A DNA stretch of 64,000 nt, taken from the IMG/VR virus record IMGVR_UViG_3300045988_074841. One strand, 5' to 3'. Of this stretch, positions 311 through 63,534 are shown piece after piece. The notes beneath the pieces are model-generated. The model saw only the letters and a program-made list of their open reading frames with translations, made no database searches and was not told where the DNA came from. Positions within the stretch are counted from its first letter, which is position 1. Every line of letters begins with the position of its first letter. Source of the stretch: a virus. The position numbers and the translations under genes are program-made.

Positions 311-355
311 GGAGAACCTATCCATCTTCTACGGGGAGGTTCTCCTTTTTATTTT
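311..355 (+). terminator. Hairpin terminator (stem GGAGAACC/GGTTCTCC, T-run); loop carries a variant copy of the GC-rich element
   Basis: 8-bp stem 311-318/338-345 followed by TTTTTATTTT. Confidence 0.6.
326..339 (-). repeat. GC-rich element, variant copy (CTTCTACGGGGAGG) in terminator loop
   Basis: seen in sequence. Confidence 0.7.
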
Positions 356-359
356 CGTT

Positions 360-983
360 ATGGAAGAATTTAATCAAATCAATGATATAATAGCTGAATC
401 TATAAAAGATACTTCTTATATTACAGTGCTTATTAGTAGTGGAGTTTATCTTGCTTATACTCTTATTATTAAGCTTGTTGATTTGTTTAAAGCTAAAGAC
501 CGGAATAGACCTATCGTTGAAATGGCTGCTGCTGTAAAGCAAGTAAGCGAAAACGTAGTTAAACTTAATGGTGTCCTAGACAAAGCTTTTCAAGATGCTG
601 AGACTAAAGAACGAAATAAAGTAAAGAATGCTATTTGTACTTCTTTTGATAGTTTTAAATGGGCTGTTGCTAATACTTGTCACGAAATTATTATTCATAA
701 CAATATTGAACAGAATAAGGTATTGATAAAACAAAACTTATTCAAAGTGATTAGTACAGAGTATTATAAACTTTATAATGTTTTCTCTGCTTATGAATTG
801 GATGGAATTTGTGTAGCTACTAAACTAAAAGAAGAGTGGATTGATGCTGTAACTAATGAATGTCTTGCTATCATTTATGATGGTCAAGATTCTATAAATA
901 GAATTGGTCAAATAAGTAATAAACTACTTATTCTTACTAATGAATATTCTATATATATAAATAACAAAGTGTTTAATTATTAA
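360..983 (+). CDS. Hypothetical protein with N-terminal TM helix
   Basis: ORF track 303..983 starts at TTG inside the upstream terminator; first ATG at 360 (MEEFNQ...) is more plausible; hydrophobic segment ITVLISSGVYLAYTLIIKLV. Confidence 0.5.
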   Translation: MEEFNQINDIIAESIKDTSYITVLISSGVYLAYTLIIKLVDLFKAKDRNRPIVEMAAAVKQVSENVVKLNGVLDKAFQDAETKERNKVKNAICTSFDSFKWAVANTCHEIIIHNNIEQNKVLIKQNLFKVISTEYYKLYNVFSAYELDGICVATKLKEEWIDAVTNECLAIIYDGQDSINRIGQISNKLLILTNEYSIYINNKVFNY

Positions 984-995
984 TAAGATGTTCTT

Positions 996-4033: not shown

Positions 4034-4095
4034 CCGCCCCGTAGAAGAGTGTAGTGGTAAGTCTTCTCTAACCATGCCTTCTACGGGGCGTTTAT
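4034..4095 (+). terminator. Composite hairpin: inverted pair of the GC-rich element (CCGCCCCGTAGAAG ... CTTCTACGGGGCG) with ~30-nt loop, then TTTAT
   Basis: Element copies at 4034-4047 and 4078-4090; loop similar to that of the 15866 element. Confidence 0.6.
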
Positions 4096-8900: not shown

Positions 8901-11900
8901 GACCAAGTTAATAATATTATTACATCTAAATATCTTACTAATGATAATGCTAATAAAGGTAAGTTGGAAGAAGCCAATACTGTTATGAATACAGCTTGGA
9001 CTGAATATAAGAACCTTATTAATACGCTTATAGATGCTAATACTGAAATAACTAAAATTAATATAGGAGAAGCTAATACTAAATATAAGAACCTTCAAGA
9101 GAAGATTAAAGCAGTTAAACAATATCTTGCTATTTGTCAAGCTGATGTACTTAGTGGTATGGGTACTGATATTACTTCATACAAATATCTTAAAGAAGCA
9201 TTTAAAGGTAAAACTGAAATAAATGGTGGTCTTGTAGTTACTAACGTACTTCAACTTCGTCAAACTTCTGATGCTTCTTCTCCTGTTACTGCTGGTATTA
9301 GTGGACTTCAAGGAAAAGCTAATGCTGATGGTATTGTAGATAAAAATACTTATGATATAACATCTATTGCTGCTTGGTTTGGCGGTCCAATGGTAGATAA
9401 AGATATATTTACAGATGAACAACTTAACAATAAAGTAGCTGGTACAGATTATGCTAGAAGTTTGTTTAGACATGATGGTAGTGGTTATTTAGCTAGTGGA
9501 GCTATTTATTGGGGAACTGATGGTGTATTACATGGCGACCCAAATAGTTTCATTCTTCAAGGTACTAGTATTGCAACAATATTTTATTATACTAGATTAT
9601 TCTATTTACATTATGCTAATCAAGATAGTACAGATTTTAATGATATAGATTATATTACTCCTAAGAAAACTTTTAGTAGACTTAATATTTTACCTTTAGG
9701 TGGTATTGAAGATAGTCATAATCTTCCTACTGGTTTATTTATTGGAGATAGTAATACTGGTGGTTCTTTTCAAATTGGTAATGTAATTCTTAGAACAAAG
9801 AGTGGAGATCCTAATATACTTGAAATAGTTAGTGCTAGTAGTAATAAAACAGCTCATCTTGGAGTACAAGGTGGAGTTAGTGCTTATGGAACATACACAC
9901 CTTCTACGGGGGGTGAAGGTGGACTAAATGGAACTATAATTCCTTATAGTACTGCTATTGCTTTTGACCCTCAAAATGAAGGAAGTAAAATAGCTAGTGC
10001 TAGTTCTATTTATAAGCTTCATAGTAGAATATCTAGTATTGAAAATAATGGTGCTACTAGTATAACTGTAACTGGAACAGGTAATGCTATTACTAGTGTT
10101 AGTAAAAATGGAACTAGCATTACTTTTACTAAAGATGCTACTTTCTTGACTAGTCATCAAAGTTTAGCAAATTATGTTACTATTAATGATAGTAGACTTA
10201 GTGATAGTCGTTATCCTAAATTTGCTAATAATACTTGGTATTTAGTAGGAGACGATGCTTATATTGGCGACCATAATAGAAATGGTATGTTTTGTATTAA
10301 ATCTGCCAATTCTGATAATGTAAGTGGTATAGCAATCTATAATAAAGCTGAAAGTGGTGTTGCTAATATTTGGTTTGATAATACAAATATAAACCTTGAT
10401 AAACAACTTGTTATGAAAAACAAGCGTATTTGGATTCAAGGTAACGGTACTGCTGGAGGTAATAATAATAGACTTACTATTGCGGCAGGTATGCCTGGTG
10501 GATTAGCATATAATACTTCATGTCGTGGAACTATTCTTTATTCTAATGGAATTGCATTCGCTGACCCATATAATGGTAATTCAAATAATGATAGTGGATG
10601 GATTAGACATTTAGAAACTTCTCCTAATAGTGGAACTTTAGAAATAGCAGTAGGTGATGATGCTTCAAATGAAGAAATTCATTTCAGATGGTATAATACA
10701 AATACTAGTGCAGAAACTATAGTACACGATATAACTGTTCCTAGATCTACAGGTACTTTAGTTTTAACTAGTCAAATACCTACAAGTCTTCCTGCAAATG
10801 GAGGTAATGCAGATACAGTTGATGGAATTCATGCAAATGGACTTCTTACTGCTCTATCTAATTCTGATAATGGAATTAGTATAACAGTTGGTGGAACTAC
10901 TAAAAGTGTTAGTAATATAAATGTAAATGGCGCTAATACAATTTTAGGAATTTCTCCTCAAATAGCTGCGGCTACAGAACATAATAGTATATATGTATCA
11001 AGTCCTGGTTATTCTACTAACAAACCAGTTAAAATGTTATGTTTTGATTGGTATGGTAATTATTGGGCACTTAGCAATATAAGAAGTGGAGATGAACATA
11101 GTAATGGATTTGGTGTATTTTTTAAAAATACAGAAATAGCTAGATTTACTTCTGATGGAAATCTTAGTTGTAATGCAGCTTCTGCAACTAAGCTGACTTC
11201 TTCAGCTGGCAGTGATACATTGCCAATTTATTTCTCAGATGGAAAACCTGTCGCTTGTACTATGAGTACTGGACGAAGTTATGGAATAGTACGATCTTTC
11301 GATCGTAGAACATATACATCTGCTAATCAATATTTCGGAAATGGTACTATTGTAGCAATAGATCCAAAAGGAGAGGGATGTATTTCGACAAATGATACTA
11401 TACTTTCATTGGGTGATTTGTCAATAAGAAATACTCAACTTTTAGTAGCATACGACAGAGATGGTGTTTATTATAGAAGAATAACAGATAATCTAAACTA
11501 TGGGAACTGGAAAAGATTAGCATTTACATCTGACAATGTAGCTTCTGCAACTAAACTTCAAACTCCTAGAACTATTTGGGGACAATCTTTTAATGGCACT
11601 GCTAATGTTAGTGGGTCTTTATCTGGAGTTGGTCATATACAATTTAGTGCAGATAATTCTTATAGTATTGGAACAAATACTTCAGAAGCGGCTCACACTT
11701 ATACAAGACAAGTATGGGCTAGACATTTAAATGCTAGTCGAGTTTATACTCGTGATACTAATTTATATATCGGTTATAGTAATACTGCGCAAGTAAAGTT
11801 ATATTCAGGTACTAAACAATCAGGAGACGGCTCTAATGAACGAATGACCATATCAACTAATGGTAATGTAGGTATTGGAACTGCTTCTCCTTCTTACAAA

Positions 11901-15865: not shown

Positions 15866-15930
15866 CCGCCCCGTAGAAGATGTAATTGGTAGAACTTCTA
15901 CTAATCATACCTTTTACGGGGCGGCTTTCA
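15866..15930 (+). terminator. Composite hairpin: inverted pair of GC-rich element (CCGCCCCGTAGAAG ... CTTTTACGGGGCGG) with conserved ~31-nt loop containing mini-palindrome GTAGAAcTTCTAC
   Basis: Copies at 15866-15879 and 15911-15924; sits between stop 15855 and start 15956. Confidence 0.6.
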
Positions 15931-22708: not shown

Positions 22709-25429
22709 ATGACTGTAAAAATTAAAAGAAGAAGTCTTCGTTGTGGTGGTAGACCTAAAGCTGACTTCGGTAGTATTTTTACTACATTTATTGCTCCTGC
22801 TTTAGGTGTTGCAGGTTCTGTAGCGGATTCTGCTATAAGTAAAACCCAAGTTTCAAAGAGCAATACTAAACAGGTTGTTAAAGATACTAACACAGAAGTT
22901 ACTAATAATAATACTTCTGTTGAGAATCTTCCTACTATTCAAGTTCCTACTAAAGATCCAATTAGTGGACTTGTTACTAGTAATACTGTTATTCCTCCTG
23001 ACCCAACTAAAACTCCTACTATGAGACTAGGTGGTAGAAAGAAATGTTGGATTGGTGCAGCCATTGGTGCTGCTACTAGTATAGCAGGTTCTTTATTTGG
23101 TGCTGCTGCTCAAAAAAGAGAAATGCGTCGGCAAAAGAGTATTCAAGATTGGCAGAATACAACTCAAGAAGCTGCTAATATGACTACTGCTCTTAATAAT
23201 AGTCAAGATTATCAAGAAGATTATCTTAGACAATTTAGAACTGCTGCTAGACTTGGTAAAACTCTTGGAGCTAAAGGTATTTATATTACTGATGGTGGAG
23301 ATGCTACTAAGATAGGAAACAACACATATCTTCTACGGGGCGGTTCTCACGAAGATGTGAATGAGACTGGTCAAACAGGTATTGGTATCAATGTTGGTGG
23401 TAATGAAGTTGAAGCTGAAGGTGGTGAAGTTGCTCAGAAGAAGAATGGTGCTCTAAGAATTTTTAGTGCTCAACCTATTCTTGGTGGTATAAGTCCTGCT
23501 CAAGCTGTAATTAATGGAGCTAACAAAGATAAAGTATTTAGTACTCAACAAACTTTTAAGAAAAGAAATGGTCTTGAAGATGATGGTAGTAAAGCTCAGG
23601 TTGGTGGTTATTATGGAGCTAACTATCCTTCTCCTTTGTCTTTATTATCTGTTATTTACGATAAAACTTTAGGAAGATTTGATAATAAAAATCCTTTCCT
23701 TCAAACAGGTACTGCACCAACTCCTAGTAGAGGTTTAAATCTTAAGCAAGTTCGTGGTGGACTTGTTAATAGAAATATGCTTCGTACTAATAGAGTTTAT
23801 CGTATATCAAATATGAGAGAAGTAAAAGATGCTAAATCTGTAGGACAATATAGAAAATTACCTGAAGGCGTTAGACTTCCTAAAAAAACTGTAGTAAGTA
23901 AAAATGGAAGAACTTTCTCGATTGGAAAAGTTGGTGGTAATAGTCATGGAGGAAAAGCTGCTGCTATGGGTGAACCTTGGACTGGAACAACTAGCGGAGG
24001 ATACAATGAAAGTAAATATGTTATAAGTACTCCTTCTAGACATACAGTTTGGCAAGTAGGTCATCATGGAAGTTATTCTAAACCTCTTCCTGCTGATGCA
24101 ATAAAAAAAGGTAGTGGTCTTTGGAAAAAATTCGATGCTGAAGGTAATACTGGAATTAGTACTAAACGCATGGTTGTGTATAAAGATTTAGGTAATGGTA
24201 GATATTTAAGATTAGCTAAAAGTAAATATAGACTTGGTGGCGGTTTAACTTCTAAAGATAGAGGTTCTTCTAAACATCCATATCCTTCTGTATCATCTAA
24301 AGATTTTGCAGGTGGTAGTAGAAGTTATCCTATTCCAACTAAAGATGATGCTGTTGATGCTTTAAGACTTGCTGGTCTTCATGGAAGAAGTGATGTTAGA
24401 AGTAAAGTATATAGTAAATATCCTAGTCTTAGAAAGAAGAGTTTATTAGGTGGTTGTAGCCGCCCCGTAAAAGGTATGAGACCTAAAGCTGATACTGGTA
24501 TCTTTGTTCCTTTCAATAAACGTTATACTTCTATTTATGATGCTCCAGATTATAATTCTGATTATAATGGTGGTAATGTTTTAGGTAACGGTGAAGTAAC
24601 AGTTACAGCTAAGAGAATTAAGCCTACTTTTATGAAACCAAATAATGATGCAATGAATATCATTAATCATCCTGCTAATGAAACTCCTTATATTCCACAA
24701 AGACATAATCGTAGTCGTACTATATTTAGTGGTGGAGATTATTTAGGATTAGGTATTGATACTCTTGCTGCATTAAGTACAGGTCTTGTAAATTATAATA
24801 CTGCTGGTAAATATGTTCTTCCTGATAGAGCACCTATTATTCAGGCTAGTAAATTACCTACAACTTATAATGTTAATCCTGAAATAGAAGAGGTTAAACG
24901 TTATAGAGATAGACTTACTGGGCAAACATTCAATAATACTTCAAGTTCTGTAGCTGCTCTTAATAGAAGTGGTGCTATTAATCTTGATGCTCTTTCTAAT
25001 CTTAGTAAACTTTGGGCTACTAAAGAGAATGAAGAGAACAAGATGCTTACAGAAGATGCTAAGAATCAACAAACTGTTGCAGCACAGAATGTACAGAATG
25101 AACTTGCTCGTCAAAGTGAAATTGCTAGAATTAAGAATGAAGCTAATCAAGCTAAGGGTGATGCTCTTAATGTTGGTCTTAGTGGATTGTCTCAAGCTTG
25201 GACTAATTTCTGGACTGCTGGTAGAACTGCTTATGAAGATGACCAAGCTAGACGTGCAATGATTGCTTCTAGTAAAGATGCTACTCCTACTAGACTTATG
25301 GAAATGGATTTTGATTTATCTCCTGATGTTATAGCTGCTCTTTATAGAACTTCTAACGAAGATAGAACTAAACGATTCTATTTGTCTAGATTGTCTCCTA
25401 AACAAAGACAAAAATATGGTATAAATTAA
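22709..25429 (+). CDS. Gly-rich virion cargo/ejection protein (906 aa) with glycine-zipper TM-like segments and C-terminal coiled coil
   Basis: FTTFIAPALGVAGSVADSAIS and WIGAAIGAATSIAGSLFGAAA segments; internal duplicated CGGRPKAD(F/T)G(S)IF module; two in-frame GC-rich element copies. Confidence 0.6.
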   Translation: MTVKIKRRSLRCGGRPKADFGSIFTTFIAPALGVAGSVADSAISKTQVSKSNTKQVVKDTNTEVTNNNTSVENLPTIQVPTKDPISGLVTSNTVIPPDPTKTPTMRLGGRKKCWIGAAIGAATSIAGSLFGAAAQKREMRRQKSIQDWQNTTQEAANMTTALNNSQDYQEDYLRQFRTAARLGKTLGAKGIYITDGGDATKIGNNTYLLRGGSHEDVNETGQTGIGINVGGNEVEAEGGEVAQKKNGALRIFSAQPILGGISPAQAVINGANKDKVFSTQQTFKKRNGLEDDGSKAQVGGYYGANYPSPLSLLSVIYDKTLGRFDNKNPFLQTGTAPTPSRGLNLKQVRGGLVNRNMLRTNRVYRISNMREVKDAKSVGQYRKLPEGVRLPKKTVVSKNGRTFSIGKVGGNSHGGKAAAMGEPWTGTTSGGYNESKYVISTPSRHTVWQVGHHGSYSKPLPADAIKKGSGLWKKFDAEGNTGISTKRMVVYKDLGNGRYLRLAKSKYRLGGGLTSKDRGSSKHPYPSVSSKDFAGGSRSYPIPTKDDAVDALRLAGLHGRSDVRSKVYSKYPSLRKKSLLGGCSRPVKGMRPKADTGIFVPFNKRYTSIYDAPDYNSDYNGGNVLGNGEVTVTAKRIKPTFMKPNNDAMNIINHPANETPYIPQRHNRSRTIFSGGDYLGLGIDTLAALSTGLVNYNTAGKYVLPDRAPIIQASKLPTTYNVNPEIEEVKRYRDRLTGQTFNNTSSSVAALNRSGAINLDALSNLSKLWATKENEENKMLTEDAKNQQTVAAQNVQNELARQSEIARIKNEANQAKGDALNVGLSGLSQAWTNFWTAGRTAYEDDQARRAMIASSKDATPTRLMEMDFDLSPDVIAALYRTSNEDRTKRFYLSRLSPKQRQKYGIN
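23330..23343 (-). repeat. GC-rich element copy (CACATATCTTCTACGGGGCGG) in 906-aa gene (LLRGGS)
   Basis: seen in sequence. Confidence 0.8.
24460..24480 (+). repeat. GC-rich element copy, 21 nt (CCGCCCCGTAAAAGGTATGAG) inserted in second copy of an internal duplication of the 906-aa gene (SRPVKGM)
   Basis: seen in sequence; absent from paralogous segment at 22741-22779. Confidence 0.85.
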
Positions 25430-35800: not shown

Positions 35801-38800
35801 ATGGCTTGTAATTTTAAAACAACAAGTGCTGGCACAAGCATTAAACGTAAGGTTGGAGCAAATAATGCTCGTTTTGTAGCGTTAATTAGTCTTATTAGTA
35901 ATCCTGAAACTGGAGGTTTTACTGATGAGTTTGTTAAGTATTATCAGAAAGTAAATCATACTGATAATATTCCTAGTGTTGATAATTCCGAAAGAGGAGT
36001 TATCGCTAAAACTGCTATCCGTTATTATAATAGTATTCACTTTGATGTTAATGCTCAAAGTACAGGTACTTATTATGATAAGGATGTAGATGCTTTCGGT
36101 TATAGTGATAGTCATGCAAAGGTATATGCTATTACTAGAGCAATTCCTAATATTATGCGTAGTATGTATGTTAGTGATATTAGAAGTGGAGAAATTGTTG
36201 ACAAGGATTCAATTCTTGGCGATTTAATTAAACGTACAAAAGTTAGGATAACTAAGGATGTTGCTGCTAATTATCTTAAAGCTATTGGTAAACCTGCAAC
36301 TAATGTTGAAGTTAATAAGATAGCTGATGCTCTTCTTAATAATAATGAAACTTATTATAAGAAAGATGAACTTATACTTGCTATAACTAAAGCTTTTGAC
36401 AAGAATGGTGATGTTCAAGTTCAAAATACTTTTGCTATTTATAAAGATATATTTAAAGATACTACTGGTAAAGATTTCTTTAATAGAGTTATTATTGCTG
36501 ACCCTATTATTGGTAATCTAAAATATAGCGATGAAACTGAATCTAGTCTTGCTGAAGCTTATGCTGAAGATTTTGATTCAGTAGATGATTCTTCTTATAA
36601 TAATAACGAAGATGAAGATGTACTTACTGTAGGTGATAGACAAGATAATACTTGGAATGATCATAGTGGTCTTGGTTCTAGTTATATGAAAGGTTTTGAC
36701 CTTGATATTCGTCTTAGTCTTTCTATGATACCTAAACTTACTAGTAATACTGTTGATACTAAGACTTTAAAGTCTGGTAAAGTAAAGGATGTTTACGATT
36801 ATGATAAAAACAATCCTACTGGTAATGTAGATTATATTGACGTAAAAGATATTATTAGTACTCTTAGTGCTAAGAAAGATGTTTCTAATCTTAATACTTT
36901 TATTGATAGTGTAAAAGAAGCTAGTAATATTCCTGGTATGGAAGGTCTTATTAAACTTTATAAAGACCTTACTTCTGATTTAGATTATGCTGCTCGTCTT
37001 TATACTCAATTCAAAACTGTAATTAACAAATATGAAACTCGTATTGCTGATGAGAATACAGCTATGAATAAGAGTAATAAGAATAGTAATGCTCAGCAAG
37101 TTCATGCTCTTAGTTTCCTTAATGATGCTAAGTTTACTCATATAAATACTGATTCTGATATTACCAATAAACTTGCTAATGAAGTAGATGAAACTATTGT
37201 AGAATATACTCAAGCTCTTGCTGCTGGCGATGAGTTTGCTTTAGACCAAGCTAAACTTTATAATACTATTGTTGATAGAATTGCTTCTCGCATTAAAGAT
37301 TATTATCCTAGTGCAGATAAAGCTTCTATTGATAATTATGTTCGTCTTGCTAATAATGGTGAAGTTGCTACCAATATGCGTTATCTTACTGATAGTCTCA
37401 GAAAGATAGCTAAAGCTTCTGATGCTACTACTTCTCAGTATACTGAAAATCGTGATGCTATTAGCGGTATTAACAAAGAAATTAGGAAACTTCAAACTAA
37501 AATTGACGCTCTCAACGAAGCTGGGGAACATAAAGGTATAGATAAAATCAATGAAGAAATAGATAAACTTGTTAGTCAAAGAGATAATATTCGATTTAGT
37601 GATTATCGTTCTCAAGATAGTATTACTCAGAGTATTGCTTTATCTGATAAACTTTATCCTTATTCTTCTGTTAAAGTTGAACTTAATTCTCGTAATGGTT
37701 TGGGTAATCTTCAATCTGATATTATCAATAGTTCCATGATTACTTATCTTCTTAAAGTACTCAATAGTCCTAAGACTACTACTGATGAATTAGGTAATAC
37801 CGCTCCTGAGTCTCTTGTTAACTTTGCTAAGTTTAAGTTTAAGAACAATCAATATAATCTTAGTAATATTCTTATTGAGACTAGAGAAAATGGTAAGATT
37901 GTAAATTATGGTCTCTTTTATTATGATGCTGACAAACAGAAATATGGTGTTACTAATTATGCTTCTGGTTTACTTAACGTTGCATTATTTAATGGAGCTG
38001 TAAAAACTGATGAAGGTACAGGTATTACTTATGCTCAAATGAGTAAAGGCGATTATGTTTATACTGCTTTTGCTAATTATTTTAATAGCGATAAAAATAT
38101 TGATGCTGATAGAGTAACTAATAGCATTCCTCTTGCTAATTACTTTATGAGAACTCCTTCTGATGCTCCTAAAACATTTGTAGTTCGTGCTCCACGTTAT
38201 CATATAACTAAGAGTAATCCAATTAGAACTGTAACAAATGCTGCTGATGTAGATAATTATATTAAGAATTATGTTGCAGAGCATATTGCTAGTATGTCTG
38301 AAGCTGCATTTAATCAAGCTAATCCTAGAGCTAAATTTATTCAACTTGAAGATAATCGTAGTGATCGTGCTCAAATTACTAGAGATTTAACTGATAATAA
38401 TATTACTCGTTCTGTATATGAGAATGAGATTATTCGTAATGATGGTAAAACTGCAACTATTGGTTATCAATTTACTGATGAAGAAGGTAATGTAAATAAA
38501 TATATTATTACCGGTTCTATTCGCCACGTAAAAGGTATGAATAAATTTGTTATTGAGAATGGTAAAGCTACTATTCTTGATAATAATGAAATGAGAGATA
38601 ATCTTCGTCCTATGATATATGATAAGTATCGTAAACAAGCTTATCGTAACGGTAGAATTGGTGATGTTCAAGTTGATTATAAAGTTAATAGAGAACATCC
38701 TATTTATAAACAATTTAGAAAGATATTTAATCAAGAGTTGACTAATATGGCTGAGGCTATTAATATGATATTCTTGACTGGCGATGATGGTGTTATTCAG

Positions 38801-41800: not shown

Positions 41801-44800
41801 GCATTTATGATGCACCCTGCTGTAACTCGTATAGTTAATGCTTATAATAAAGGTAAATCTGTTTATAGTGAAGATTCTGCTCAACCTATAGTTGATGCTC
41901 TTAAAGAAGTAGCTGAAGAACTCGATGTTGATAGTAGTTCTTTATATTCAGGTAAAATGGTAGTTGAAGCTATTAATGATAAACTTGGTACAAATTATAG
42001 TTTTATTAAAAACAACAATATTGTTCTTGATGAAGAGCAATTAGCTAGTGATGTAAAGAATGCAAACAATGTTTCTCTTGCTCGTGAAGTAGAGATTCTT
42101 ATGGCTTACAATGATATTAATCGTTTAGCTGATGTAATTCAGAAAACTGTAAGAGTTTGTAATCCTGATAAGTTTGGAGCTAAACAAACTATATTTGCTA
42201 CTAATGAAGTATTTGAAACTATTAAAGATATAATTAATAGTAAACAAGCTAAAGTACTTAGTAAGAATGATATTCCTTTCCTTGAAAGTATTTATCCTGG
42301 ACTTATTAAAGATGGTGTTGTAGATAAAGATAATTATGTAAAAGATACTCATGAATCTGCTTATCCTTCTCTTAATGCTTTCTTAAAGTATGCTTCAGTT
42401 ACTAGTACTGTAGTTAATAGCATGCTTTTTGAAACTCAAAATTCTGCTTTTGTAACTACTATTAAAGCTCTTAGTAAAATGCTTCCTACTCCTCGTAAAC
42501 TTACTGAGAAAGAATATAATGATTATGAGAAGTATGTTATTGGTGCTGCTTATAATAATGCTGACGGAATTAGATTAGGTTATACTATCAACTCTTCTAC
42601 GGGGCGTCTTGAATCAACTAAAACAAGTGATTTACAAGAGCGTCTTCGTATTTATGGATTTAGTGGTAGTCCAGTATTTCATTTTGATGTTGAAGATATT
42701 ACTGAACCAACTCAAGATGAAATTGATGCTTGGTCTAAACTTACTCCTGCTCAAAAAGTTGCTTGGTTACAAAGTAAAGCAGAAGATGGTGGTATATTTA
42801 GTAAACTTAAAGTTGACCTTCAAGATAATTATCGTGTTGGTAATAAAGAATGTGCTGCTCAATCTATTCGTTTTAATGATGATAATGTAGATACTGAAAC
42901 TGCTTACAATCTTTTTGAAACTGCTACTAAGAGTCAGAATCCTCTTGTTAAACTTGCAGCTATAGACCTTATTAAATATGCGTTTGTAGTTGAAGGTTTC
43001 AAGATGCGTCGTAATGGTATTAATAAGATTATTAAGAATAGTACTCTTCGTGATGATACTTTGTTTGCTAATCAAGATGGAGAACCTACTAGTCTTCTTA
43101 GTCAAATTGATGCTAATTTTAAGCATATTACTTATGATGATTATCGTGATGATTATTTAAGAAGTCATTCTGATAATGGTATGGTTCCAAAAAGAACTGT
43201 AAAGAAGAAAAGAGTAGGTAAAATTTGGGTTAATGAACTTAGTGCTCCTGATGGAGTTATAACTCTTAATGTTCCTTCTCGTAGAAATGATATTACAGAA
43301 GCAGATATTAATGATGAATTTGCTGCTACTAAAACTATTGCAGAAGAGACGGAAATCCGCCCCGTAGAAGATGTAGTAGATAATAAACTTCAAGTTGTTC
43401 AAGATAATACTACTGCTCCAGATGATACTAAACTTGCTGTTAAGTATGGTATTTATAATGCTTGGACTGATAGAGTTAATCCTTATGTAAAACTTACTTT
43501 TAAGAATCGTGGTGTTAATACTACGAATCTTTATAAGACTGTTCGTCATGGTGATATAATATTTGCTTATCCTGTTAGTATGCTTGAGGAAAACGAACAT
43601 GGTATTGTTTCTGTTAATCAAGCTAATAATACTCTTTATAGTGAGATGTATTATAGAACTATTATTGATAATAAACTTCAAGGTAATCAACTTACTAAAG
43701 AAGAAGCAGATAAACTTCGTAAAGAATACGCCAATGAACGAGCTATTTCTTCTAAAAGTAGAGTTAATACTGGTTTTGATATTAATAAAGATAGAACTAC
43801 TGGCGATATAGGTGGTGCTCGTGATGCTTATAGTAAAATTATTAATCTTATTAAGAATGATGCTAAAGGTATTCAAATTATAAACAATAGGTATCTTTAT
43901 AATCGTGTTAGTGAAGGATTTGGTAATTTCCAAATTATTCATGATGTAATTGATGGTAATGAAGTTACTAAGAAAATTGCTTTTGCTAAAGAAACAAAAG
44001 TAATATTTGATTCTGAAGGTAAAGTAATTCCTTATCCTGTTAAAGTTATTCAGATTATTCCTTCTACTAATGATAAAGAAAGTACATCTGTTGAATATAA
44101 TTTTGACATGTTTACTGATATTAATCGTAGAGCACATGAAGGTGATGTCAATGCTTATCGTGAAGTTCAGTTTATGAATAATAATGGTTTTGAGAATGTT
44201 AGTACTGATTATACAAATATGTCTCCTAAACTTTATGAAGCTATTGATAGATTCACTAGTGCTACAGCTAAGAAACTTATCAGTGATGCTGACCAATTCT
44301 ATAAAAAAGAAGATGGAACTTATGCTTCTATATTTGCTCCTGAAACTATAGAAATGATTCGTAATAATCCTAGTGAGCAAAGACGTTTTCAAAAGTTACT
44401 TCTTGATACAGATAGTATTATTAATAAATATGGTACTATATTTGATGTTGTAGTTGACGAAAATGAGAATCCTGAAGTAATTGATTTTATTAATCATATT
44501 AAGAAAACTATTGGAGATTTACGTAACAAACTTAATCTTAGTACTCTTAATGAAAGATTTGCTAGAGAAGTTGTTGCTAAATGGTCTAATGACCCTAATA
44601 TTCAAAATGGTTTAGTTGATATTTGTAATGGTTATCATGCTGTTACTTGGTGTGATGCTTGGATTGGAGATTTACAAGATACTGGTAATAGTCTTATTCA
44701 AAATATTAGCAAACATATAGTTGATGATATTAGTGCTAAAGATATGCAAGCTGCTAAAGATGCTCGTGAATTTGAAAAAGCTATTAAAGCTCTAGGTCAC

Positions 44801-49174: not shown

Positions 49175-49175
49175 A

Positions 49176-49196
49176 CCGCCCCGTAAAAGAGTTGAT
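49176..49196 (+). repeat. Solitary GC-rich element copy (CCGCCCCGTAAAAGAGTTGAT) 2 nt after vRNAP stop codon
   Basis: seen in sequence; no inverted partner nearby. Confidence 0.8.
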
Positions 49197-52019: not shown

Positions 52020-52045
52020 AACTTCACTACCTTAACTAATAACGA

Positions 52046-52077: not shown

Positions 52078-52310
52078 TCACAGAAACGAGGAAAAAATGT
52101 CGTTAATTTGTGTTAAGGCTAACTATAACTATCTGATAATCAATTAGTTACAGCGTCAAAAATTGGCTCTATATATATAATATATTAGTCCTATGATATT
52201 TGACACGGCAAAGATAACTAAAAAGTAGTATACTGGTACAACTTTTAAGCTAAATGTTGTATATATCTACAATATTTTCTATAGTAGCATTAACATCACC
52301 TACTTCACAT

Positions 52311-52380
52311 CTTCTACGGGGCGGCTTTAGCTGCTTCTAGTATTCTAGCACTAGTAGTTGCTCTATCCTCCCCGTAAAGG
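52311..52380. repeat. Composite element: inverted pair of GC-rich element (CTTCTACGGGGCGG ... CCTCCCCGTAAAGG) immediately downstream of (-)-strand stop 52387
   Basis: Copies at 52311-52324 and 52367-52380 (second degenerate), ~42-nt loop. Confidence 0.6.
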
Positions 52381-52386
52381 ACATCC

Positions 52387-59831: not shown

Positions 59832-59845
59832 CTTCTACGGGGCGG
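59832..59845 (-). repeat. Solitary intergenic GC-rich element copy (CACATTCTTCTACGGGGCGG)
   Basis: seen in sequence. Confidence 0.8.
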
Positions 59846-60226: not shown

Positions 60227-61426
60227 TTACTTTTGAATGTCCACTAATTTACAATGAAAAGGCACGTTCTTTACACCCGACCTTTCACGAAACTCACAAG
60301 TTGCAAGTTTACCAATAAAATCTTCTTTATGTTTAAGAATATATTCTTGTCTTGAATGGTCAAAATTACCAGTAGCTTCAAATAGTTCATCATTGATGTC
60401 ATTTTTAAGAACAAACTTACAAAGTGTAGTTCTAACTCCTTCAGGAACAACATCAATAATTTTAAACTTAGCATCATCAACTCGTTTATATTTAAGCATA
60501 GCTAAATTACGAGCACCAAATTGATAAGCAGAATCAACATCACGAATAATAAGACCTTCAAAACCAAGACTTATAAATTTATCTCTAAATCTTGTAGCAT
60601 CATCAATATTACTAATAACTACATCTGGTAATAATACAAGTTTACTCTTGTTATTAAGATGCTGTTCATAAGTATCAAAAGTATAACATAGTCTACTTAT
60701 GTTATCATTCTTAAACTTACGTCTAGCTTCATAACTCATATTATCAATAGCAATATCATAACACCAATACTGAAGAAGTAGATGTTGAGGAAGTTTTTCA
60801 TTCTTAACAAAACTATTAATATCATTTACTTTATAACCAGGAATATAAAGTTCACCATCAAGGCAAGCTCCTTCTTCAATCATAGCATCAAGTAAATCAT
60901 CTTTAATAGCTGGAAGAATTACTTCATCCATCCAAGTAAGTTTAGGAGTCCAATCAGTACCTTCTCTAGAACGATAAGTAAGTCTAACAGGATTAAACAT
61001 ATCATTAGTTTGTTCAGCACCAACAATACATCTAACTCCATTAATTTTATATTGACCTAAGTAACTACGTTTATCAAAAGGTTTATTATCTTTAAGTACT
61101 TTTGCAAGCATTGGAAGAACAAAACCTTCATCAGTAGTATTATTCTTTGGAAGATAAGTATTAAGATAATTAATTAAACTAACATAATCAGGAAAACTTT
61201 CAGGAGCATTATCTTTAAGCTCAGAAACTTCTTTATATCCTTCTTTACGTTTAGCTTTAATACGAGACTCAATCTCATTACCTTTAACTAACTTTCTAGC
61301 AACTTCTTCATCGTGAACAGTAGCTCCAGCTACTAAACCATATTTCAAAGATATGTTACCATTAGGAAGTTCAGATATATCCCAAAATTGAGGTTCGCCT
61401 TTAGCGTTTCTTTTATATAGTCTCAT
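60227..61426 (-). CDS. ATP-dependent DNA ligase
   Basis: Motif I QYKINGVR (KxDGxR-like), motif III LDGELY, motif IV EGLIIRD, motif V LKYKRV. Confidence 0.75.
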   Translation of the reverse strand: MRLYKRNAKGEPQFWDISELPNGNISLKYGLVAGATVHDEEVARKLVKGNEIESRIKAKRKEGYKEVSELKDNAPESFPDYVSLINYLNTYLPKNNTTDEGFVLPMLAKVLKDNKPFDKRSYLGQYKINGVRCIVGAEQTNDMFNPVRLTYRSREGTDWTPKLTWMDEVILPAIKDDLLDAMIEEGACLDGELYIPGYKVNDINSFVKNEKLPQHLLLQYWCYDIAIDNMSYEARRKFKNDNISRLCYTFDTYEQHLNNKSKLVLLPDVVISNIDDATRFRDKFISLGFEGLIIRDVDSAYQFGARNLAMLKYKRVDDAKFKIIDVVPEGVRTTLCKFVLKNDINDELFEATGNFDHSRQEYILKHKEDFIGKLATCEFRERSGVKNVPFHCKLVDIQK

Positions 61427-61920
61427 ATATTAATTTTAAGTTTACTAATAAGTTTAGCTCTAGCTTGAGCATTTAACTGAGCAGCACTTTGAGTTTTCTC
61501 TTTCTTAGGTTTTTCAAAACCATCAAGAGTTCCTTCTTTAGCTTTCTTTTTAGTAGTACGAGTAGTCTTCTTTAAACCTTTCTTCTTGTCATATATGATA
61601 GGAGGATTATCTTCTTCATATTTAAGATTACGTTTATGTAAAGCTACAAGTTTAGAAACATATTCGTCTCTTTTATTTTCATCAATCCACCCTTGTTCAA
61701 GAGCATAATTAATTCCATACAGAGTACGACTAACTTCATATTGATAAGGAGTACCAATAGTTTGCATCATTCTCATATCATCTTTAATACGAGAACAATC
61801 AAGACGAACACAAGCTTTAGCAACAAATTCATCAGCACCACAAGTACTAATATCTTTGATAGCCATAACTTTAACTTGTTCATCTATTACCATAGTATAA
61901 GCTTTTGGAAATCTTACCAT
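61423..61920 (-). CDS. Hypothetical protein (165 aa) with basic C-terminal tail
   Basis: ATGA overlap with ligase gene; K/T-rich C-terminus. Confidence 0.45.
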   Translation of the reverse strand: MVRFPKAYTMVIDEQVKVMAIKDISTCGADEFVAKACVRLDCSRIKDDMRMMQTIGTPYQYEVSRTLYGINYALEQGWIDENKRDEYVSKLVALHKRNLKYEEDNPPIIYDKKKGLKKTTRTTKKKAKEGTLDGFEKPKKEKTQSAAQLNAQARAKLISKLKINI

Positions 61921-62390
61921 TGTTTAGCTATTAATCTGAATATTACAACTTTATCTGGTTTACCTAGACGACCATGAGCATATTGAGCCATAGCACCAAT
62001 ATCATCAGTTTCTCTAGTTTGATACATTTTTGTAGGAGTTTTACAAGTATGAGTATCATAATCGTAATTAAGAGGAATATGAACAACATCTTTAAAAGGA
62101 ATTAATTCGTTTAAAGCATCATAATCTTCAGTACCATCATGAAAATCTACTTCTCCATACGAAAATATATTGTCTTTATCAAGATCAAAAGTAATACCAC
62201 CTCTAGTTATAGAAATAGCTCTACCTTTATCAAGTAGAGCTTCTTCTTTGTCACTTATCCAAGTCATAAGAATACGAGTTTGTGATTTTATTTTATTACC
62301 AGCTTTCTCAGTATGGCAAATCACAGTCTGATAATCTTTTGAAATAGGCATCGGTATTACTCTTATCTTTTCTGTATCGGATTTCGACAT
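61914..62390 (-). CDS. Hypothetical protein (158 aa)
   Basis: ATG ORF; 83-nt overlap with primase 3' end. Confidence 0.45.
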   Translation of the reverse strand: MSKSDTEKIRVIPMPISKDYQTVICHTEKAGNKIKSQTRILMTWISDKEEALLDKGRAISITRGGITFDLDKDNIFSYGEVDFHDGTEDYDALNELIPFKDVVHIPLNYDYDTHTCKTPTKMYQTRETDDIGAMAQYAHGRLGKPDKVVIFRLIAKQW

Positions 62391-63534
62391 ATCTAATAGT
62401 TTCTTTAATAAAAGTATCTATTTCATCATTATTGAATTTATCATGTAAATCAGCAAAATCTTTACACTCATAATTCTCAAGTCCAAATTCTCCACGAGTA
62501 ATAAAAAGATAAGGAATGCCATAAGTTTCCAAAAGATAATCAGCACCATCACGTCCAGTCCTATCAAAATCTAGAAGACTAACAATCATACCTTCATTAT
62601 TAAGTCTTTTTCTAAGCCAAGTATATTCATTAGCTTTAAGTCTATAATTTTCACTAGGAAGATTAACAACTCCAATATTAAGAGTTTTTCCATCCGCCCC
62701 GTAGAAGATATGTTTGCTTAGATGACTACCTAAACTTAATCTATCTTTACTAGACTTAGTTATAATAATATAATCATAATCTTCTCTTTCTAGATTAGGA
62801 AGACCTTCAAGTACATTACAATTAGTTACAAACTTTAATTCCTTAGTTCTATCACGTAATGGAAAATATAGTTTAATAAGATATACTCCAGATTTATTAC
62901 GACCAAGCATATAAGCATAACAAGGGTCATTTTTAGCATCTTTATATTTAGGAGTAGGATTAGTTACTCTATCAATATAATATTGTTCAACTGGAATAAC
63001 AAAATGAGTATTAAGATAATTCAAATCTACATTTAATTTAGCCCATATAGCTTTATCTTGACGATTCCAACTACGAGGAACAATTTCAATAATAGCTTTT
63101 TTCTTACGAGCTTTAACGAGAGCATTCTTTATAGATTCGTCTACATCATAATCATTAATACGATTATCTATTTGATATGAAAACGTTCTATAAATATGAC
63201 TTAGTACAAAATAAAAATCTTGTTTATTATTTGTACTAATCGGTCTTTCATATACAATACTTAGTACGTAAGCTACTACACCATACACATCATTAAAAAA
63301 ACCAGCACCGCCAAAATCACGAACTTTAAGTCTACCCTTGGCATTGTATGCAATACCCATACTACCATCAGTATCATCATCACGAAATACAGAAGTAATA
63401 AGATGATTATGTTCAACACAATCTCTAACTACTTCTAATGGTATATCTAAGTATTTACTTACAATTTCTTCTTGACTTACTCTAGATTCTATAAAAGCTT
63501 TTGTAAGTTTACTTGTGTTAGCATTACGTTTCAT
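62308..63534 (-). CDS. DNA primase, toprim-domain (DnaG-like)
   Basis: Toprim signatures: acidic NVLEG ... IIITKSSKD ... SLLDFDRTGRDGADYL (DxD + GRD); one GC-rich element copy in-frame (IFYGADG). Confidence 0.6.
   Translation of the reverse strand: MKRNANTSKLTKAFIESRVSQEEIVSKYLDIPLEVVRDCVEHNHLITSVFRDDDTDGSMGIAYNAKGRLKVRDFGGAGFFNDVYGVVAYVLSIVYERPISTNNKQDFYFVLSHIYRTFSYQIDNRINDYDVDESIKNALVKARKKKAIIEIVPRSWNRQDKAIWAKLNVDLNYLNTHFVIPVEQYYIDRVTNPTPKYKDAKNDPCYAYMLGRNKSGVYLIKLYFPLRDRTKELKFVTNCNVLEGLPNLEREDYDYIIITKSSKDRLSLGSHLSKHIFYGADGKTLNIGVVNLPSENYRLKANEYTWLRKRLNNEGMIVSLLDFDRTGRDGADYLLETYGIPYLFITRGEFGLENYECKDFADLHDKFNNDEIDTFIKETIRYVEIRYRKDKSNTDAYFKRLSDCDLPY
62694..62707 (+). repeat. GC-rich element copy (CCGCCCCGTAGAAGATATG) inside (-)-strand primase gene
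   Basis: seen in sequence. Confidence 0.8.

What the first reader, a model, noticed from the sequence alone, without database searches (positions are those of the whole stretch)
326..62707. Dispersed GC-rich ~19-21-nt element family (core CCGCCCCGTAGAAG) with at least 21 copies in an AT-rich phage genome
A 14-nt GC-rich core (extended consensus CCGCCCCGTARAAGRTRTG, reverse CAYAYCTTYTACGGGGCGG) recurs at 326, 4034, 4078, 9901, 15866, 15911, 23330, 24460, 27543, 32230, 34544, 35434, 38521 (degenerate), 42594, 43357, 49176, 52311, 52367, 56651, 59832 and 62694. In a ~30% GC 64-kb sequence a specific GC-rich 12-14-mer is expected about zero times. Copies occur in both orientations, on both gene blocks, in intergenic DNA and inside coding sequence (tail fibre, all three largest cargo proteins, vRNAP, primase, DUF1599-like). 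The pattern resembles mobile GC clusters of yeast mitochondrial DNA or Rickettsia palindromic elements, which also colonise AT-rich genomes and insert in-frame into genes. It could alternatively be a protein-binding site (packaging, nucleoid organisation, vRNAP or host RNAP signal) or an RNA-level signal.
Basis: seen in the sequence. Interest (0 to 1): 0.9.

Follow-up and report, generated by a model that had tools for sequence, protein, structure and literature searches.

The report
Evenly spaced strand-specific phage DNA signal
A GC-rich word of about 20 bases occurs 21 times in this crAss-like gut phage, is kept at the same places in related phages, and sits at regular intervals on each DNA strand, so it looks like a selected signal (perhaps for starting DNA copying), not a jumping element.

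Summary
All 21 listed copies exist, against about 0.03 expected by chance. A position-weight scan finds exactly these 21 and no decayed relics.

The mobile GC-cluster interpretation is not supported.
- 14 of the 21 copies (11 of 18 loci) sit at orthologous positions in the different-genus phage cr8_1. The core CCCCGTA is 100% conserved there, while the flanks have diverged.
- The primase copy is kept as far as crAss002, in a different reading frame. The constraint is therefore on DNA, not on the peptide.
- Lineage-specific copies align to motif-less residues without a clean insertion gap.

Every Intestiviridae genome I examined carries its own version ("dialect") of the motif around CCCCGTA. 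crAss001 has an analogous word, CTCCAGAAG, 27 times.

The new finding is the spacing. Same-strand copies are never closer than about 2–3.5 kb and have a median spacing of 5–8 kb (CV 0.26–0.52 against about 0.9 for random placement; pooled z = −6.8). The two strands are independent in phase, so orientations alternate.

My best reading is a strand-specific cis-signal read by a phage-lineage-specific DNA-tracking machine. The most likely candidate is a set of sequence-programmed priming or initiation sites. This is inferred, not shown. Chi-like, uptake-sequence-like and nick-site readings remain open. I found no description of the motif in the literature.

The parts
326..339 (-). Motif copy CCTCCCCGTAGAAG. 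Intergenic, between the ORF 129-302 and the ATG at 360. Flanking bases form a short hairpin.
   Evidence: orthologous to cr8_1 47674
4034..4047 (+). Motif copy, left arm of an intergenic inverted pair.
   Evidence: the pair 4034-4091 folds at -34.5 kcal/mol, z = -7.0; orthologous to cr8_1 41926
4078..4091 (-). Motif copy ACGCCCCGTAGAAG, right arm of the same inverted pair.
9901..9914 (-). Motif copy ACCCCCCGTAGAAG inside the 2537-aa fibre-like gene, antisense to it. The gene reads PSTGGE here.
15866..15879 (+). Motif copy, left arm of an intergenic inverted pair upstream of the tail ring protein 2 gene.
   Evidence: the pair folds at -37.0 kcal/mol, z = -8.5; PF25702
15911..15924 (-). Motif copy CCGCCCCGTAAAAG, right arm of that pair.
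   Evidence: orthologous to cr8_1 37722, core 14/14 identical
23330..23343 (-). Motif copy inside the 906-aa gene, antisense. The gene reads LLRGG here.
   Evidence: orthologous to cr8_1 29623
24460..24473 (+). Motif copy inside the 906-aa gene, sense (SRPVKGM). Relatives carry variable in-frame domains immediately upstream of it.
   Evidence: orthologous to cr8_1 27563
27543..27556 (+). Motif copy inside the 630-aa gene, sense (IRPVKDM). Lineage-specific, and mutated in some close relatives.
32230..32243 (-). Motif copy inside the 2357-aa gene, antisense (SSTGG).
   Evidence: orthologous to cr8_1 20142
34544..34557 (+). Motif copy inside the 2357-aa gene, sense (SRPVED). It aligns to EKPLEP in cr8_1 with no gap.
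35434..35447 (-). Motif copy inside the 2357-aa gene, antisense (SSTGR). The same site is present in cr271_1 (47771).
38521..38534 (+). Weakest copy, TCGCCACGTAAAAG, inside the 4457-aa gene, sense. It is canonical in one relative and carries different mutations in others.
   Evidence: (24.4 bits)
42594..42607 (-). Motif copy inside the 4457-aa gene, antisense (SSTGR). cr8_1 has NNYTYD at the same aligned positions.
43357..43370 (+). Motif copy inside the 4457-aa gene, sense (IRPVED).
49176..49189 (+). Motif copy 2 nt after the stop codon of the 4457-aa gene. It is unstructured, and an ordinary terminator hairpin follows at about 49228-49290.
   Evidence: (z = 0.3); the same position is occupied in cr8_1 3395, cr271_1 66210 and ctcc615 12770
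52311..52324 (-). Motif copy, arm of an intergenic inverted pair between minus-strand genes. Bacteroides-type promoters (TAnnTTTG) lie downstream.
   Evidence: (-32.8 kcal/mol, z = -5.1)
52367..52380 (+). Motif copy CCTCCCCGTAAAGG, the other arm of that pair.
   Evidence: 23.6 bits
56651..56664 (+). Motif copy inside the DUF1599 gene (minus strand), antisense (PSTGR).
   Evidence: orthologous to cr8_1 88033, core 14/14 identical
59832..59845 (-). Motif copy, intergenic, just downstream of the stop codon of gene 59862-60218.
   Evidence: orthologous to cr8_1 86686, with diverged and gapped flanks
62694..62707 (+). Motif copy inside the primase gene (minus strand), antisense (FYGA), in a variable loop.
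   Evidence: the same site is present in cr8_1 83135, cr271_1 78006 and crAss002 74263, the last in another reading frame (PLRG)

Best explanation
The copies are a selected, strand-specific cis-acting DNA signal. They are not insertions.

Shown:
- Each copy arises and is kept in place.
- Each phage lineage has its own version of the motif around an invariant CCCCGTA.
- Each strand independently carries one copy about every 5-8 kb and never two close together.

Inferred: the signal is read on one strand, or in one direction, by a phage-encoded machine that travels along DNA and needs to meet a site within a few kilobases.

Most likely mechanism (inferred, not shown): the copies are programmed initiation or priming sites on single-stranded template. 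RNA primer synthesis, by the T7/T4/DnaG-type primase or by the crAss virion RNA polymerase, would start at the junction between the pyrimidine-rich half (reverse complement CTTCTA) and the G run. This would give a purine-started, GC-rich primer that stays annealed in a 30%-GC genome. Forks created by recombination-dependent replication can run either way, so both strands need coverage. Inverted pairs in intergenic DNA would double as hairpin terminators.
For: 1. The motif is real and shows no decay: 21 sites at 23.6-41.8 bits and nothing else above 8 bits.
2. It is conserved in place. 14 of the 21 copies (11 of 18 loci) have orthologues in cr8_1. In the 14 orthologous pairs the core is 89% identical and CCCCGTA is 100% identical, against 72% in the flanks. 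Intergenic flanks carry indels.
3. The constraint is on DNA. The primase site is retained in the window, cr8_1, cr271_1 and crAss002, but is read as FYGA/YGG in three of them and as PLRG in crAss002.
4. Copies arise in place. Lineage-specific copies align to motif-less residues without a clean gap.
5. The motif is family-wide, with lineage versions: cr8_1 27-28 sites, cr271_1 19, ctcc615 21, crAss002 30, p-crAssphage 32. crAss001 has CTCCAGAAG 27 times against 0.36 expected.
6. Same-strand spacing is regular. The minimum is about 1.5-3.6 kb and the median 5-8 kb. CV is 0.26-0.58 against a null of about 0.9; 10 of 14 strand sets have P < 0.01, and Stouffer z = -6.8.
7. crAss002 became regular only after a PWM scan added 15 variant-core sites: CV fell from 0.65/0.90 to 0.48/0.42.
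8. The orientation of single sites alternates in 81 of 114 steps, against 56.7 expected.
9. The phase between the two strands is uniform, so they are two independent series.
10. The two window sites that decay in close relatives, 27543 and 38521, have near same-strand neighbours 3.1 and 4.0 kb away.
11. The phage primase has a T7 gp4 / T4 gp61 / DnaG fold: pLDDT 87, Foldseek E = 5e-6 to 1e-5.
12. From general knowledge: T7 and T4 primases start pppAC at 5'-GTC/GTT-3'. DnaG starts pppAG at 5'-CTG-3', or at CTA/TTA in other species.
Against: - No experiment or RNA/DNA end-mapping data bear on the motif. The trans-acting factor is not identified.
- Known DnaG/T7-type primases read only 3 bases, not 14-24.
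- In crAss002 half of the sites have CCCCATA, so the G of 'GT' is not invariant.
- Okazaki fragments of 5-8 kb would be long.
- Inverted pairs occur in both relative arrangements, so they give no consistent origin geometry.
- A simple exclusion of close direct repeats would by itself lower the CV to about 0.5, so part of the regularity could have another cause.
- The genomes compared are related, and the window and cr8_1 share sites, so the statistics are not fully independent. p-crAssphage and crAss001 are independent of the window.
Confidence: 0.4

Rival explanations
1. Chi-like sites. The motif would be recognised directionally by a phage-encoded (or host) helicase-nuclease. The enzyme degrades DNA from ends until it meets a correctly oriented site. 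This would spare phage DNA, start RecT-type recombination, and leave motif-less host DNA to be destroyed.
For: - The motif is strand- or direction-specific, and each strand has even coverage.
- Its density, about one site per 3.3 kb, resembles the density of Chi in E. coli (general knowledge).
- The G-rich strand resembles the composition of known Chi sequences.
- These phages encode a Gam-like end-binding protein, a RecT recombinase, a PD-(D/E)XK exonuclease and a RecD/Dda-like helicase.
- Lineage-specific versions of the motif fit a phage-encoded reader.
Against: - Known Chi sites are 5-8 nt and are set by the host enzyme. Here, phages of the same host genus have different motifs, and crAss001 has no CCCCGTA at all.
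- No RecBCD/AddAB-like complex was identified in the window.
- A Gam-like protein already protects DNA ends.
Confidence: 0.15
2. An orientation-independent double-stranded DNA recognition word, like bacterial DNA uptake sequences. A phage protein involved in packaging choice, nucleoid organisation or self/non-self marking would bind it. It would accumulate by weak selection or molecular drive wherever coding constraints allow.
For: The distribution matches USS/DUS point by point.
- It is over-represented, occurs in both orientations and is enriched in non-coding DNA.
- Many copies lie in ORFs, in tolerant segments.
- Some copies form inverted pairs that act as terminators.
- It has lineage-specific versions.
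- Spacing is even.
The USS/DUS properties are taken from PMC1939737.
Against: - Orientation should then be random. Instead, single sites alternate far more often than chance.
- Regularity holds for each strand separately, with a uniform phase between the strands.
- No DNA-binding candidate was found. The so-called 'IHF-like' gene is tail ring protein 2.
Confidence: 0.15
3. Recognition sites of a phage nickase that introduces localized single-strand interruptions into virion DNA, as in T5, phiKMV-like phages and phage tf.
For: - The word is asymmetric, about 10-20 nt long, and repeated 15-30 times per genome.
- There is precedent for conserved nick consensus sequences in several phage groups (PMC3517423).
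- HNH endonucleases occur in many of these genomes.
Against: - In tf, T5 and phiKMV-like phages all nick sites lie on one strand and are unevenly distributed. Here both strands carry evenly spaced sites.
- The HNH gene next to the ligase in cr8_1 is absent from the window.
- Nicks are dispensable in T5, whereas these sites are conserved across subfamilies.
Confidence: 0.08
4. A mobile GC-rich mini-element (a yeast-mitochondrial GC cluster, an RPE or a MITE-like element) that spreads by insertion, including in-frame insertion into genes.
For: - It is a GC-rich repeat in an AT-rich genome, found in both orientations and also inside ORFs.
- Two copies are flanked by a direct TTGAT(AA) repeat.
- Some non-orthologous copies share 3' flanks (AGTTGATA).
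Against: - Copies are orthologous and conserved across genera and subfamilies.
- There is no clean insertion gap at lineage-specific copies.
- There are no decayed copies.
- There is no general target-site duplication.
- No transposase was found in the window.
- About 20 nt is shorter than any known autonomous or non-autonomous element.
- Same-strand spacing is even.
Confidence: 0.03
5. An RNA-level signal: a terminator, a processing site or a regulatory hairpin.
For: Three inverted pairs lie just after stop codons and fold into very stable hairpins (z = -5 to -8.5).
Against: - 15 of the 21 copies are single.
- The one single copy folded in its own window (49176) has no structure (z = 0.3).
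- About half of the copies are antisense to the only coding strand.
- crAss002 has almost no pairs.
- Ordinary terminators and Bacteroides promoters sit next to the motif.
- No Rfam family matches.
Confidence: 0.04

Closest known systems
DNA uptake sequences (USS of Pasteurellaceae, DUS of Neisseriaceae)
   Same: - A short asymmetric word, hugely over-represented and present in both orientations.
- Enriched in non-coding DNA but often found inside ORFs, in tolerant segments.
- About 10% occur as inverted pairs that act as terminators.
- Lineage-specific versions exist.
- Spacing is more even than random.
- Copies arise in place by substitution.
(USS/DUS properties from PMC1939737; for this motif.)
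   Different: - The host here is a lytic phage, which has no DNA uptake step.
- USS orientation is irrelevant and random. Here orientation alternates, and regularity holds per strand.
- The motif is longer, with about 24 informative positions.
Primase recognition sites (T7 5'-GGGTC/TGGTC, T4 5'-GTT/GCT, DnaG 5'-CTG/CTA) and single-strand initiation (ssi) signals of plasmids such as RSF1010 ssiA/ssiB
   Same: - Strand-specific signals read on single-stranded template.
- A G/C-rich templated primer with a purine start.
- The phage encodes a primase of the T7/T4/DnaG fold.
- ssiA and ssiB lie on opposite strands next to each other, like the inverted pairs here.
   Different: - Known primase sites are 3-5 nt, are not conserved in position, and are not known to be evenly spaced.
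- ssi signals are hairpins, with one or two per replicon.
- Priming at this motif has not been shown.
Chi sites (crossover hotspot instigator)
   Same: An over-represented, orientation-dependent word read by a translocating enzyme. Its density is about one per few kb, and one strand is G-rich.
   Different: - Chi is 5-8 nt and is determined by the host RecBCD/AddAB.
- Its orientation is skewed with the replichore rather than alternating.
- Here the word differs between phages of one host genus.
Localized nick consensus sites of phages T5, phiKMV-like phages and tf
   Same: An asymmetric conserved word of 9-19 nt, repeated in a phage genome, with enigmatic function.
   Different: Those sites lie on one strand only and are unevenly distributed. 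Here both strands carry evenly spaced sites. Nicks have not been tested here.
Mobile GC clusters of yeast mitochondrial DNA / Rickettsia palindromic elements
   Same: GC-rich repeats in an AT-rich genome, some of them inside coding sequence.
   Different: Those elements are insertions of 30-150 bp, with presence/absence polymorphism and decayed copies. Here copies are about 20 nt, formed in place, positionally conserved, without relics, and evenly spaced.

Membership tests
Mobile GC cluster / RPE / MITE-like insertion element | Copies are insertions: orthologous genes that lack the copy show a gap of the element's length. | tested here: not met
   Protein alignments of the window against cr8_1: 34544 SRPVED vs EKPLEP (no gap), 42594 SSTGRLES vs NNYTYDVE (no gap), 35434 with a 1-aa gap, 27543 with no gap.
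Mobile GC cluster / RPE / MITE-like insertion element | A population of copies at different stages of decay, and presence/absence polymorphism. | tested here: not met
   PWM scores are bimodal: 21 sites at 23.6 bits or more, and nothing else above 8 bits. Close relatives differ by point substitutions, not by precise indels.
Mobile GC cluster / RPE / MITE-like insertion element | Target-site duplication or terminal inverted repeats, and a cognate transposase. | tested here: not met
   Only 2 of 21 copies have a flanking direct repeat. Nothing is conserved beyond -5..+18. No transposase appears among the window proteins scanned.
DNA uptake sequence-like over-represented word | Strong over-representation, both orientations, non-coding enrichment, and origin in place. 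| tested here: met
DNA uptake sequence-like over-represented word | Orientation is irrelevant, so the order of orientations is random. | tested here: not met
   81 alternations in 114 steps against 56.7 expected; none of 20000 permutations per genome, summed over genomes, reached the observed total.
DNA uptake sequence-like over-represented word | A receptor that binds the word during DNA uptake. | not testable with these tools
   There is no uptake step in a lytic phage, and no binding data exist.
Chi sites | A short word (5-8 nt) defined by the host RecBCD/AddAB and therefore shared by genomes of one host group. | tested here: not met
   The informative length is about 24 nt. crAss002 (host B. 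xylanisolvens) has TTCCCCC[G/A]TAAAGGAG, while crAss001 (host B. intestinalis) has CTCCAGAAG and no CCCCGTA.
Chi sites | Orientation-dependent attenuation of a helicase-nuclease. | not testable with these tools
   Needs biochemistry.
Phage localized nick sites (T5, phiKMV-like, tf) | All sites lie on one strand. | tested here: not met
   The window has 11 sites on + and 10 on -, and the other genomes have similar splits.
Phage localized nick sites (T5, phiKMV-like, tf) | A physical nick at the consensus in virion DNA. | not testable with these tools
   Sequence data only.
Intrinsic transcription terminators | A GC-rich hairpin after a gene end. | tested here: inconclusive
   Met by the three inverted pairs. 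Not met by the 15 single copies: the one folded has no hairpin (z = 0.3 for 49176), and 12 lie inside ORFs.
Primase / single-strand initiation signals | Strand-specific signal with coverage of the template strand. | tested here: met
   Per-strand regular spacing, with independent phase between the strands.
Primase / single-strand initiation signals | A cognate primase encoded by the replicon. | tested here: met
   The gene at 62308-63534 matches PHROG 12622, DNA primase. Its predicted fold matches T7 gp4, T4 gp61 and Mtb DnaG.
Primase / single-strand initiation signals | RNA primers start at the site. | not testable with these tools
   Needs 5'-end mapping or an in-vitro priming assay.
REP/BIME (GTAG-tagged palindromes with a RAYT transposase) | A palindromic unit with GTAG at its outer end, extragenic location, and an associated RAYT transposase. 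| tested here: not met
   The unit is not palindromic. GTAG lies inside the hairpin in the pairs. 12 of the 21 copies are genic. No HUH transposase was found.

The most novel reading that the evidence does not exclude
Crassvirales genomes carry, on each strand independently, an evenly spaced series of lineage-specific initiation sites. At these sites the phage's own primase (or the injected virion RNA polymerase acting on single-stranded DNA) would lay down GC-rich primers. Lagging-strand or strand-displacement synthesis would then be sequence-programmed rather than stochastic, and the motif would co-evolve with the enzyme that reads it.
Probability: 0.25. Interest if true: 0.85.

Novelty: new variant of a known kind. 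Interest (0 to 1): 0.75.

Why it matters
crAss-like phages are the most abundant viruses of the human gut, and almost nothing is known about how their DNA is replicated, recombined or recognised.

This work points to a conserved, lineage-specific DNA word placed at regular intervals on each strand. It is present in p-crAssphage and in the cultured phages crAss002 and crAss001. That gives a concrete and cheap experimental handle: oligonucleotide binding and priming assays, 5'-end mapping and nick mapping.

It could also serve as a sequence marker for classifying crAss lineages. It is an unusual example of coding sequences, including essential enzymes, being bent to carry a DNA-level signal. If the priming reading is right, it would be an unusual case of sequence-programmed fragment initiation in a double-stranded DNA phage.

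Tried and rejected
- **Rfam and tRNA scans.** The only hit is tRNA-Gln at 49332-49403. No RNA family matches the motif.
- **Hairpin enclosing single copies.** Short flank complementarity appears in some copies and some lineages, for example ACCT...AGGT in ctcc615. It is not consistent, and 49176 has no structure. I did not pursue a formal covariation test.
- **Target-site duplication.** TTGAT(AA) flanks only 2 copies.
- **Motif as a recombination or module boundary.** Homology breakpoints against relatives lie mostly at gene borders. By my rough hand count, they are only about 3-fold enriched within 50 nt of a motif, which the intergenic location explains.
- **Insertions next to 9901 and 24460 in relatives.** These are in-frame protein domains, not elements.
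- **'IHF-like' virion protein as the binding factor.** The gene is PF25702, tail ring protein 2.
- **HNH endonuclease as the factor.** It is absent from the window.
- **PHROG and Pfam scans of 40 window proteins.** No sequence-specific DNA-binding protein was found.
- **The search for homologous proteins on the DUF1599 protein.** The 120 proteins listed were all 85-100% identical, so this was useless for the insertion test.
- **tblastn with the ligase.** Uninformative.
- **Nine literature searches, including literal motif strings of several lineage versions.** Nothing was found on this motif.
- **Midpoint test.** I asked whether opposite-strand sites sit midway between same-strand sites. They do not; the phase is uniform.

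Full report

Yes. CCGCCCCGTAGAAG with up to 2 mismatches occurs 19 times on both strands of the 64-kb window. Dinucleotide-preserving shuffles give 0.03 on average and never more than 1. The window is 27-35% GC.

I built a 26-position weight matrix from the window and cr8_1 copies. It scores the 21 sites at 23.6-41.8 bits. Nothing else in the window exceeds 8 bits, and the best score in shuffled sequence is 10. The family is therefore sharply bounded, with 21 good copies and no decayed ones.

A logo over 66 non-redundant sites from related contigs shows information from about -5 to +18: T[A/C]nA[G]-CC[G/C]CCCCGTA[R]AAG-[R]T[A]T[G]. Nothing is conserved beyond that.

**2. Anatomy in the window**

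Genes run on the + strand up to 49.2 kb and on the - strand from 50 kb. Eleven copies are on + and ten on -.

Nine copies, at six loci, are intergenic although only 6.6% of the window is non-coding (P = 3.5e-6). Three of these loci are inverted pairs: 4034/4078, 15866/15911 and 52311/52367. They lie just after stop codons and fold into very stable hairpins (-33 to -37 kcal/mol; z = -5 to -8.5).

The single intergenic copy at 49176 has no structure (z = 0.3). It is followed by an ordinary AT-stem/T-run terminator. Bacteroides-type TAnnTTTG promoters sit downstream of the 52.3-kb pair. So the phage has normal promoters and terminators, and the motif is something else.

Twelve copies lie inside ORFs. 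Five are sense; four of them read RPV(E/K) and the degenerate 38521 copy reads RHVK. Seven are antisense, reading STG(G/R), LLRGG or FYGA.

**3. Relatives**

The nearest GenBank phage is cr8_1 (Intestiviridae, Obtuvirinae, Fohxhuevirus). At the nucleotide level only 6% of a 14-kb probe aligns, although the primase is 79% identical in amino acids.

The exact 14-mer occurs in many roughly 30%-GC crAss-like IMG/VR contigs, at the same positions as in the window. High-GC contigs hold single chance hits. Those loci were selected because they contain the motif, so I used cr8_1 as an unbiased comparison, because it was found by general similarity.

cr8_1 carries 27-28 copies of its own version of the motif, ctctAG-CC[G/C]CCCCGTAAAAG-GTATGTA. 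Fourteen of the 21 window copies, at 11 of 18 loci, have a cr8_1 copy at the orthologous position. In those pairs the 14-nt core is 89% identical and CCCCGTA is 100% identical. The differences concentrate at two positions that vary by lineage. The 60-nt flanks are 72% identical, and the intergenic flanks carry indels.

**4. Insertion or origin in place?**

For copies present in only one lineage, I aligned the giant proteins (38-47% identity). The motif-encoded residues align opposite ordinary residues with no gap of the right size:
- SRPVED vs EKPLEP
- SSTGRLES vs NNYTYDVE
- TSSTGRIEE vs TEET-QDEQ
- IRPVKD vs LNPASN

Close relatives differ at the sites by point substitutions, never by precise loss of a block. 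The primase copy lies in a length-variable loop between conserved motifs. Only two copies have a flanking direct repeat. Together with the absence of relics, this argues against a mobile insertion element.

**5. The motif is family-wide and has lineage-specific versions**

De novo k-mer enrichment finds related words in every Intestiviridae genome I fetched:

| Genome | Motif version | Sites |
|---|---|---|
| cr271_1 | tAGCTCCCCCGTAGAAGARATG | 19 |
| ctcc615 | AGCT/GACCT-CCCCCGTAGAAGG | 21 |
| crAss002 (cultured) | TTCCCCC[G/A]TA[A/G]AGGAG | 30 |
| p-crAssphage (Carjivirus communis) | [A/T]AC[C/T]CCCCGT[A/G]GAGGATGGA | 32 |

crAss001 (Steigviridae) has no CCCCGTA. It has CTCCAGAAG 27 times against 0.36 expected, at the same density. 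On the reverse complement the two families share CTTCT followed by a G-rich start.

Several sites are orthologous across genera and subfamilies:
- the primase loop
- the SNF2 helicase
- UDG
- an LYGG site in the giant RNAP protein
- the position just after that gene's stop codon

The primase site is read as FYGA or YGG in the window, cr8_1 and cr271_1, but as PLRG in crAss002. That is a one-base frame shift around the same TACGGGG at the same codon number. The constraint is therefore on the nucleotides, not on the peptide.

**6. New observation: regular spacing on each strand**

Treating each strand separately, neighbouring copies are never closer than about 1.5-3.6 kb and have a median spacing of 5-8 kb. 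The coefficient of variation is 0.31-0.58, against 0.8-0.9 for random placement. Ten of 14 strand sets have P < 0.01, and Stouffer z = -6.8.

In crAss002 the exact-core sites looked irregular (CV 0.65 and 0.90). A weight matrix trained on those sites then found 15 more with a CCCC[A/T]TA core. With these included, the CV fell to 0.48 and 0.42, which is an out-of-sample confirmation.

After removing the close inverted pairs, the orientation of single sites alternates:
- cr8_1: 18 of 20 steps (P = 7e-4)
- p-crAssphage: 18 of 24 steps (P = 0.009)
- crAss001: 19 of 26 steps (P = 0.004)
- pooled: 81 of 114 steps against 56.7 expected

The position of a site relative to its opposite-strand neighbours is uniformly distributed. 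The alternation is therefore a by-product of two independent, regular, per-strand series, not of pairing between neighbours.

The two window sites that are decaying in close relatives, 27543 and 38521, have near same-strand neighbours 3.1 and 4.0 kb away. This suggests redundancy, but it is anecdotal.

Caveats:
- The genomes are related, and the window and cr8_1 share sites. p-crAssphage and crAss001 are independent of the window.
- A pure exclusion of close direct repeats would give a CV near 0.5, so it could account for part of the effect. However, deletion between 14-20-bp repeats several kb apart should be too rare to drive this.

**7. What it most likely is**

Shown:
- The word is under purifying selection at the DNA level.
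- It is created in place and is tolerated only in permissive protein segments and in intergenic DNA.
- It differs by lineage around an invariant core.
- It is distributed so that each strand is covered at regular intervals.

Inferred: it is read in a strand- or direction-specific way by a phage-encoded machine that tracks along DNA.

My preferred mechanism is programmed initiation or priming on single-stranded template. The points in its favour are inferences:
- The motif has a pyrimidine-rich half and a G-run half (reverse complement CTTCTA|CGGGG). This is the layout of an initiation site, with a recognition region followed by purine starts.
- A GC-rich primer is what a 30%-GC genome would need for a stable short RNA-DNA hybrid.
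- The phage primase has the T7 gp4 / T4 gp61 / DnaG fold (pLDDT 87; Foldseek E about 1e-5). In alignment A1, its N-terminal region, where relatives carry the template-reading zinc ribbon, has no invariant cysteine.
- crAss virion RNA polymerase is reported to transcribe denatured DNA (bioRxiv 10.1101/2020.03.07.982082).
- Recombination functions are present: a Gam-like protein and a ligase in the window, and RecT and an exonuclease in relatives. These fit forks that run in either direction, which would explain why both strands need coverage.

Against it:
- Known primases of this fold read 3 bases, not 14-24.
- G is not invariant in 'GT' in crAss002.
- Fragments of 5-8 kb would be long.
- There are no experimental data.

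**8. Rivals**

A Chi-like signal for a helicase-nuclease also explains directionality and coverage. It is weakened by the motif's length and by the fact that phages of one host genus use different words.

An uptake-sequence-like duplex word matches almost every distributional feature described for USS/DUS (PMC1939737). It does not predict alternating orientation.

Nick sites of the T5/tf/phiKMV type lie on one strand only and are unevenly spread (PMC3517423).

RNA-level and mobile-element readings fail several tests (sections 2 and 4).

**9. Novelty**

I found no description of this motif. The searches were literal string searches for several lineage versions of the motif, searches combining crAss with motif terms, and term searches within a Crassvirales review and the phi14:2 virion-RNAP preprint. 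The library is incomplete, so absence there is not proof.

The kind of object, an over-represented oriented genomic word, is known. Its occurrence in crAss-like phages, its version-by-lineage pattern, its conservation inside essential genes, and above all the per-strand regular spacing appear to be new.

Noticed in passing
L131+L132 (Bacteroides phage crAss001, MH675552): crAss001 lacks CCCCGTA entirely. It carries CTCCAGAAG 27 times (0.36 expected), on both strands, with alternating orientation and regular same-strand spacing. CTCCAG is also the reverse complement of the CTGGAG type IIS recognition sequence.
   Followed up: partly
window 24380-24460; L095 2177-3479; L062 1764-2159: Immediately upstream of the 24460 copy, relatives carry in-frame extra protein segments of about 1300 nt (L095) and about 395 nt (L062) in the 906-aa gene. 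The window has neither, so this is a hot spot of domain gain and loss.
   Followed up: partly
window 9901-9940; L067 2237-3289: A relative has about 1050 nt of extra coding sequence in the 2537-aa fibre-like gene. It is bounded by a repeated glycine-rich coding segment (…GGLN…), which suggests repeat-mediated module gain or loss in the fibre.
   Followed up: partly
window 49175-50019: An 845-nt non-coding region lies between the two convergent gene blocks. It holds tRNA-Gln(UUG) at 49332-49403, a strong terminator at about 49228-49290, and about 600 nt of unassigned sequence. GC skew changes sign here.
   Followed up: no
L127/L128 (crAss002) 4214, 47844, 86212; L129/L130 (p-crAssphage) 6026, 28078, 28177, 58728: In a subset of sites a second GC-rich word (…CGCTTCGCTCCG… and variants) lies directly 5' of the motif. 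It is absent from the window.
   Followed up: partly
window 62308-63534 (-): The primase has a confident T7 gp4 / T4 gp61 / DnaG-like fold. No Pfam family matches it. The N-terminal region, which corresponds to the zinc ribbon of relatives, has no conserved cysteines (SPLRxDxxPSxGF…RDFAGYFWGDCFD).
   Followed up: partly
window 52020-52386 (-): This intergenic region contains two Bacteroides-type -7 promoter boxes (TATCTTTG). One is preceded by a classical terminator hairpin (CCTCGTTTC…GAAACGAGG plus a T run), so a terminator and a promoter are stacked at an operon boundary.
   Followed up: no
window 15956-16645 (+): The gene annotated 'IHF-like' in several crAss genome records matches PF25702, CrAss_Ring_2 (tail ring protein 2), at E = 3e-49. 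The IHF label in older annotations is probably misleading.
   Followed up: yes
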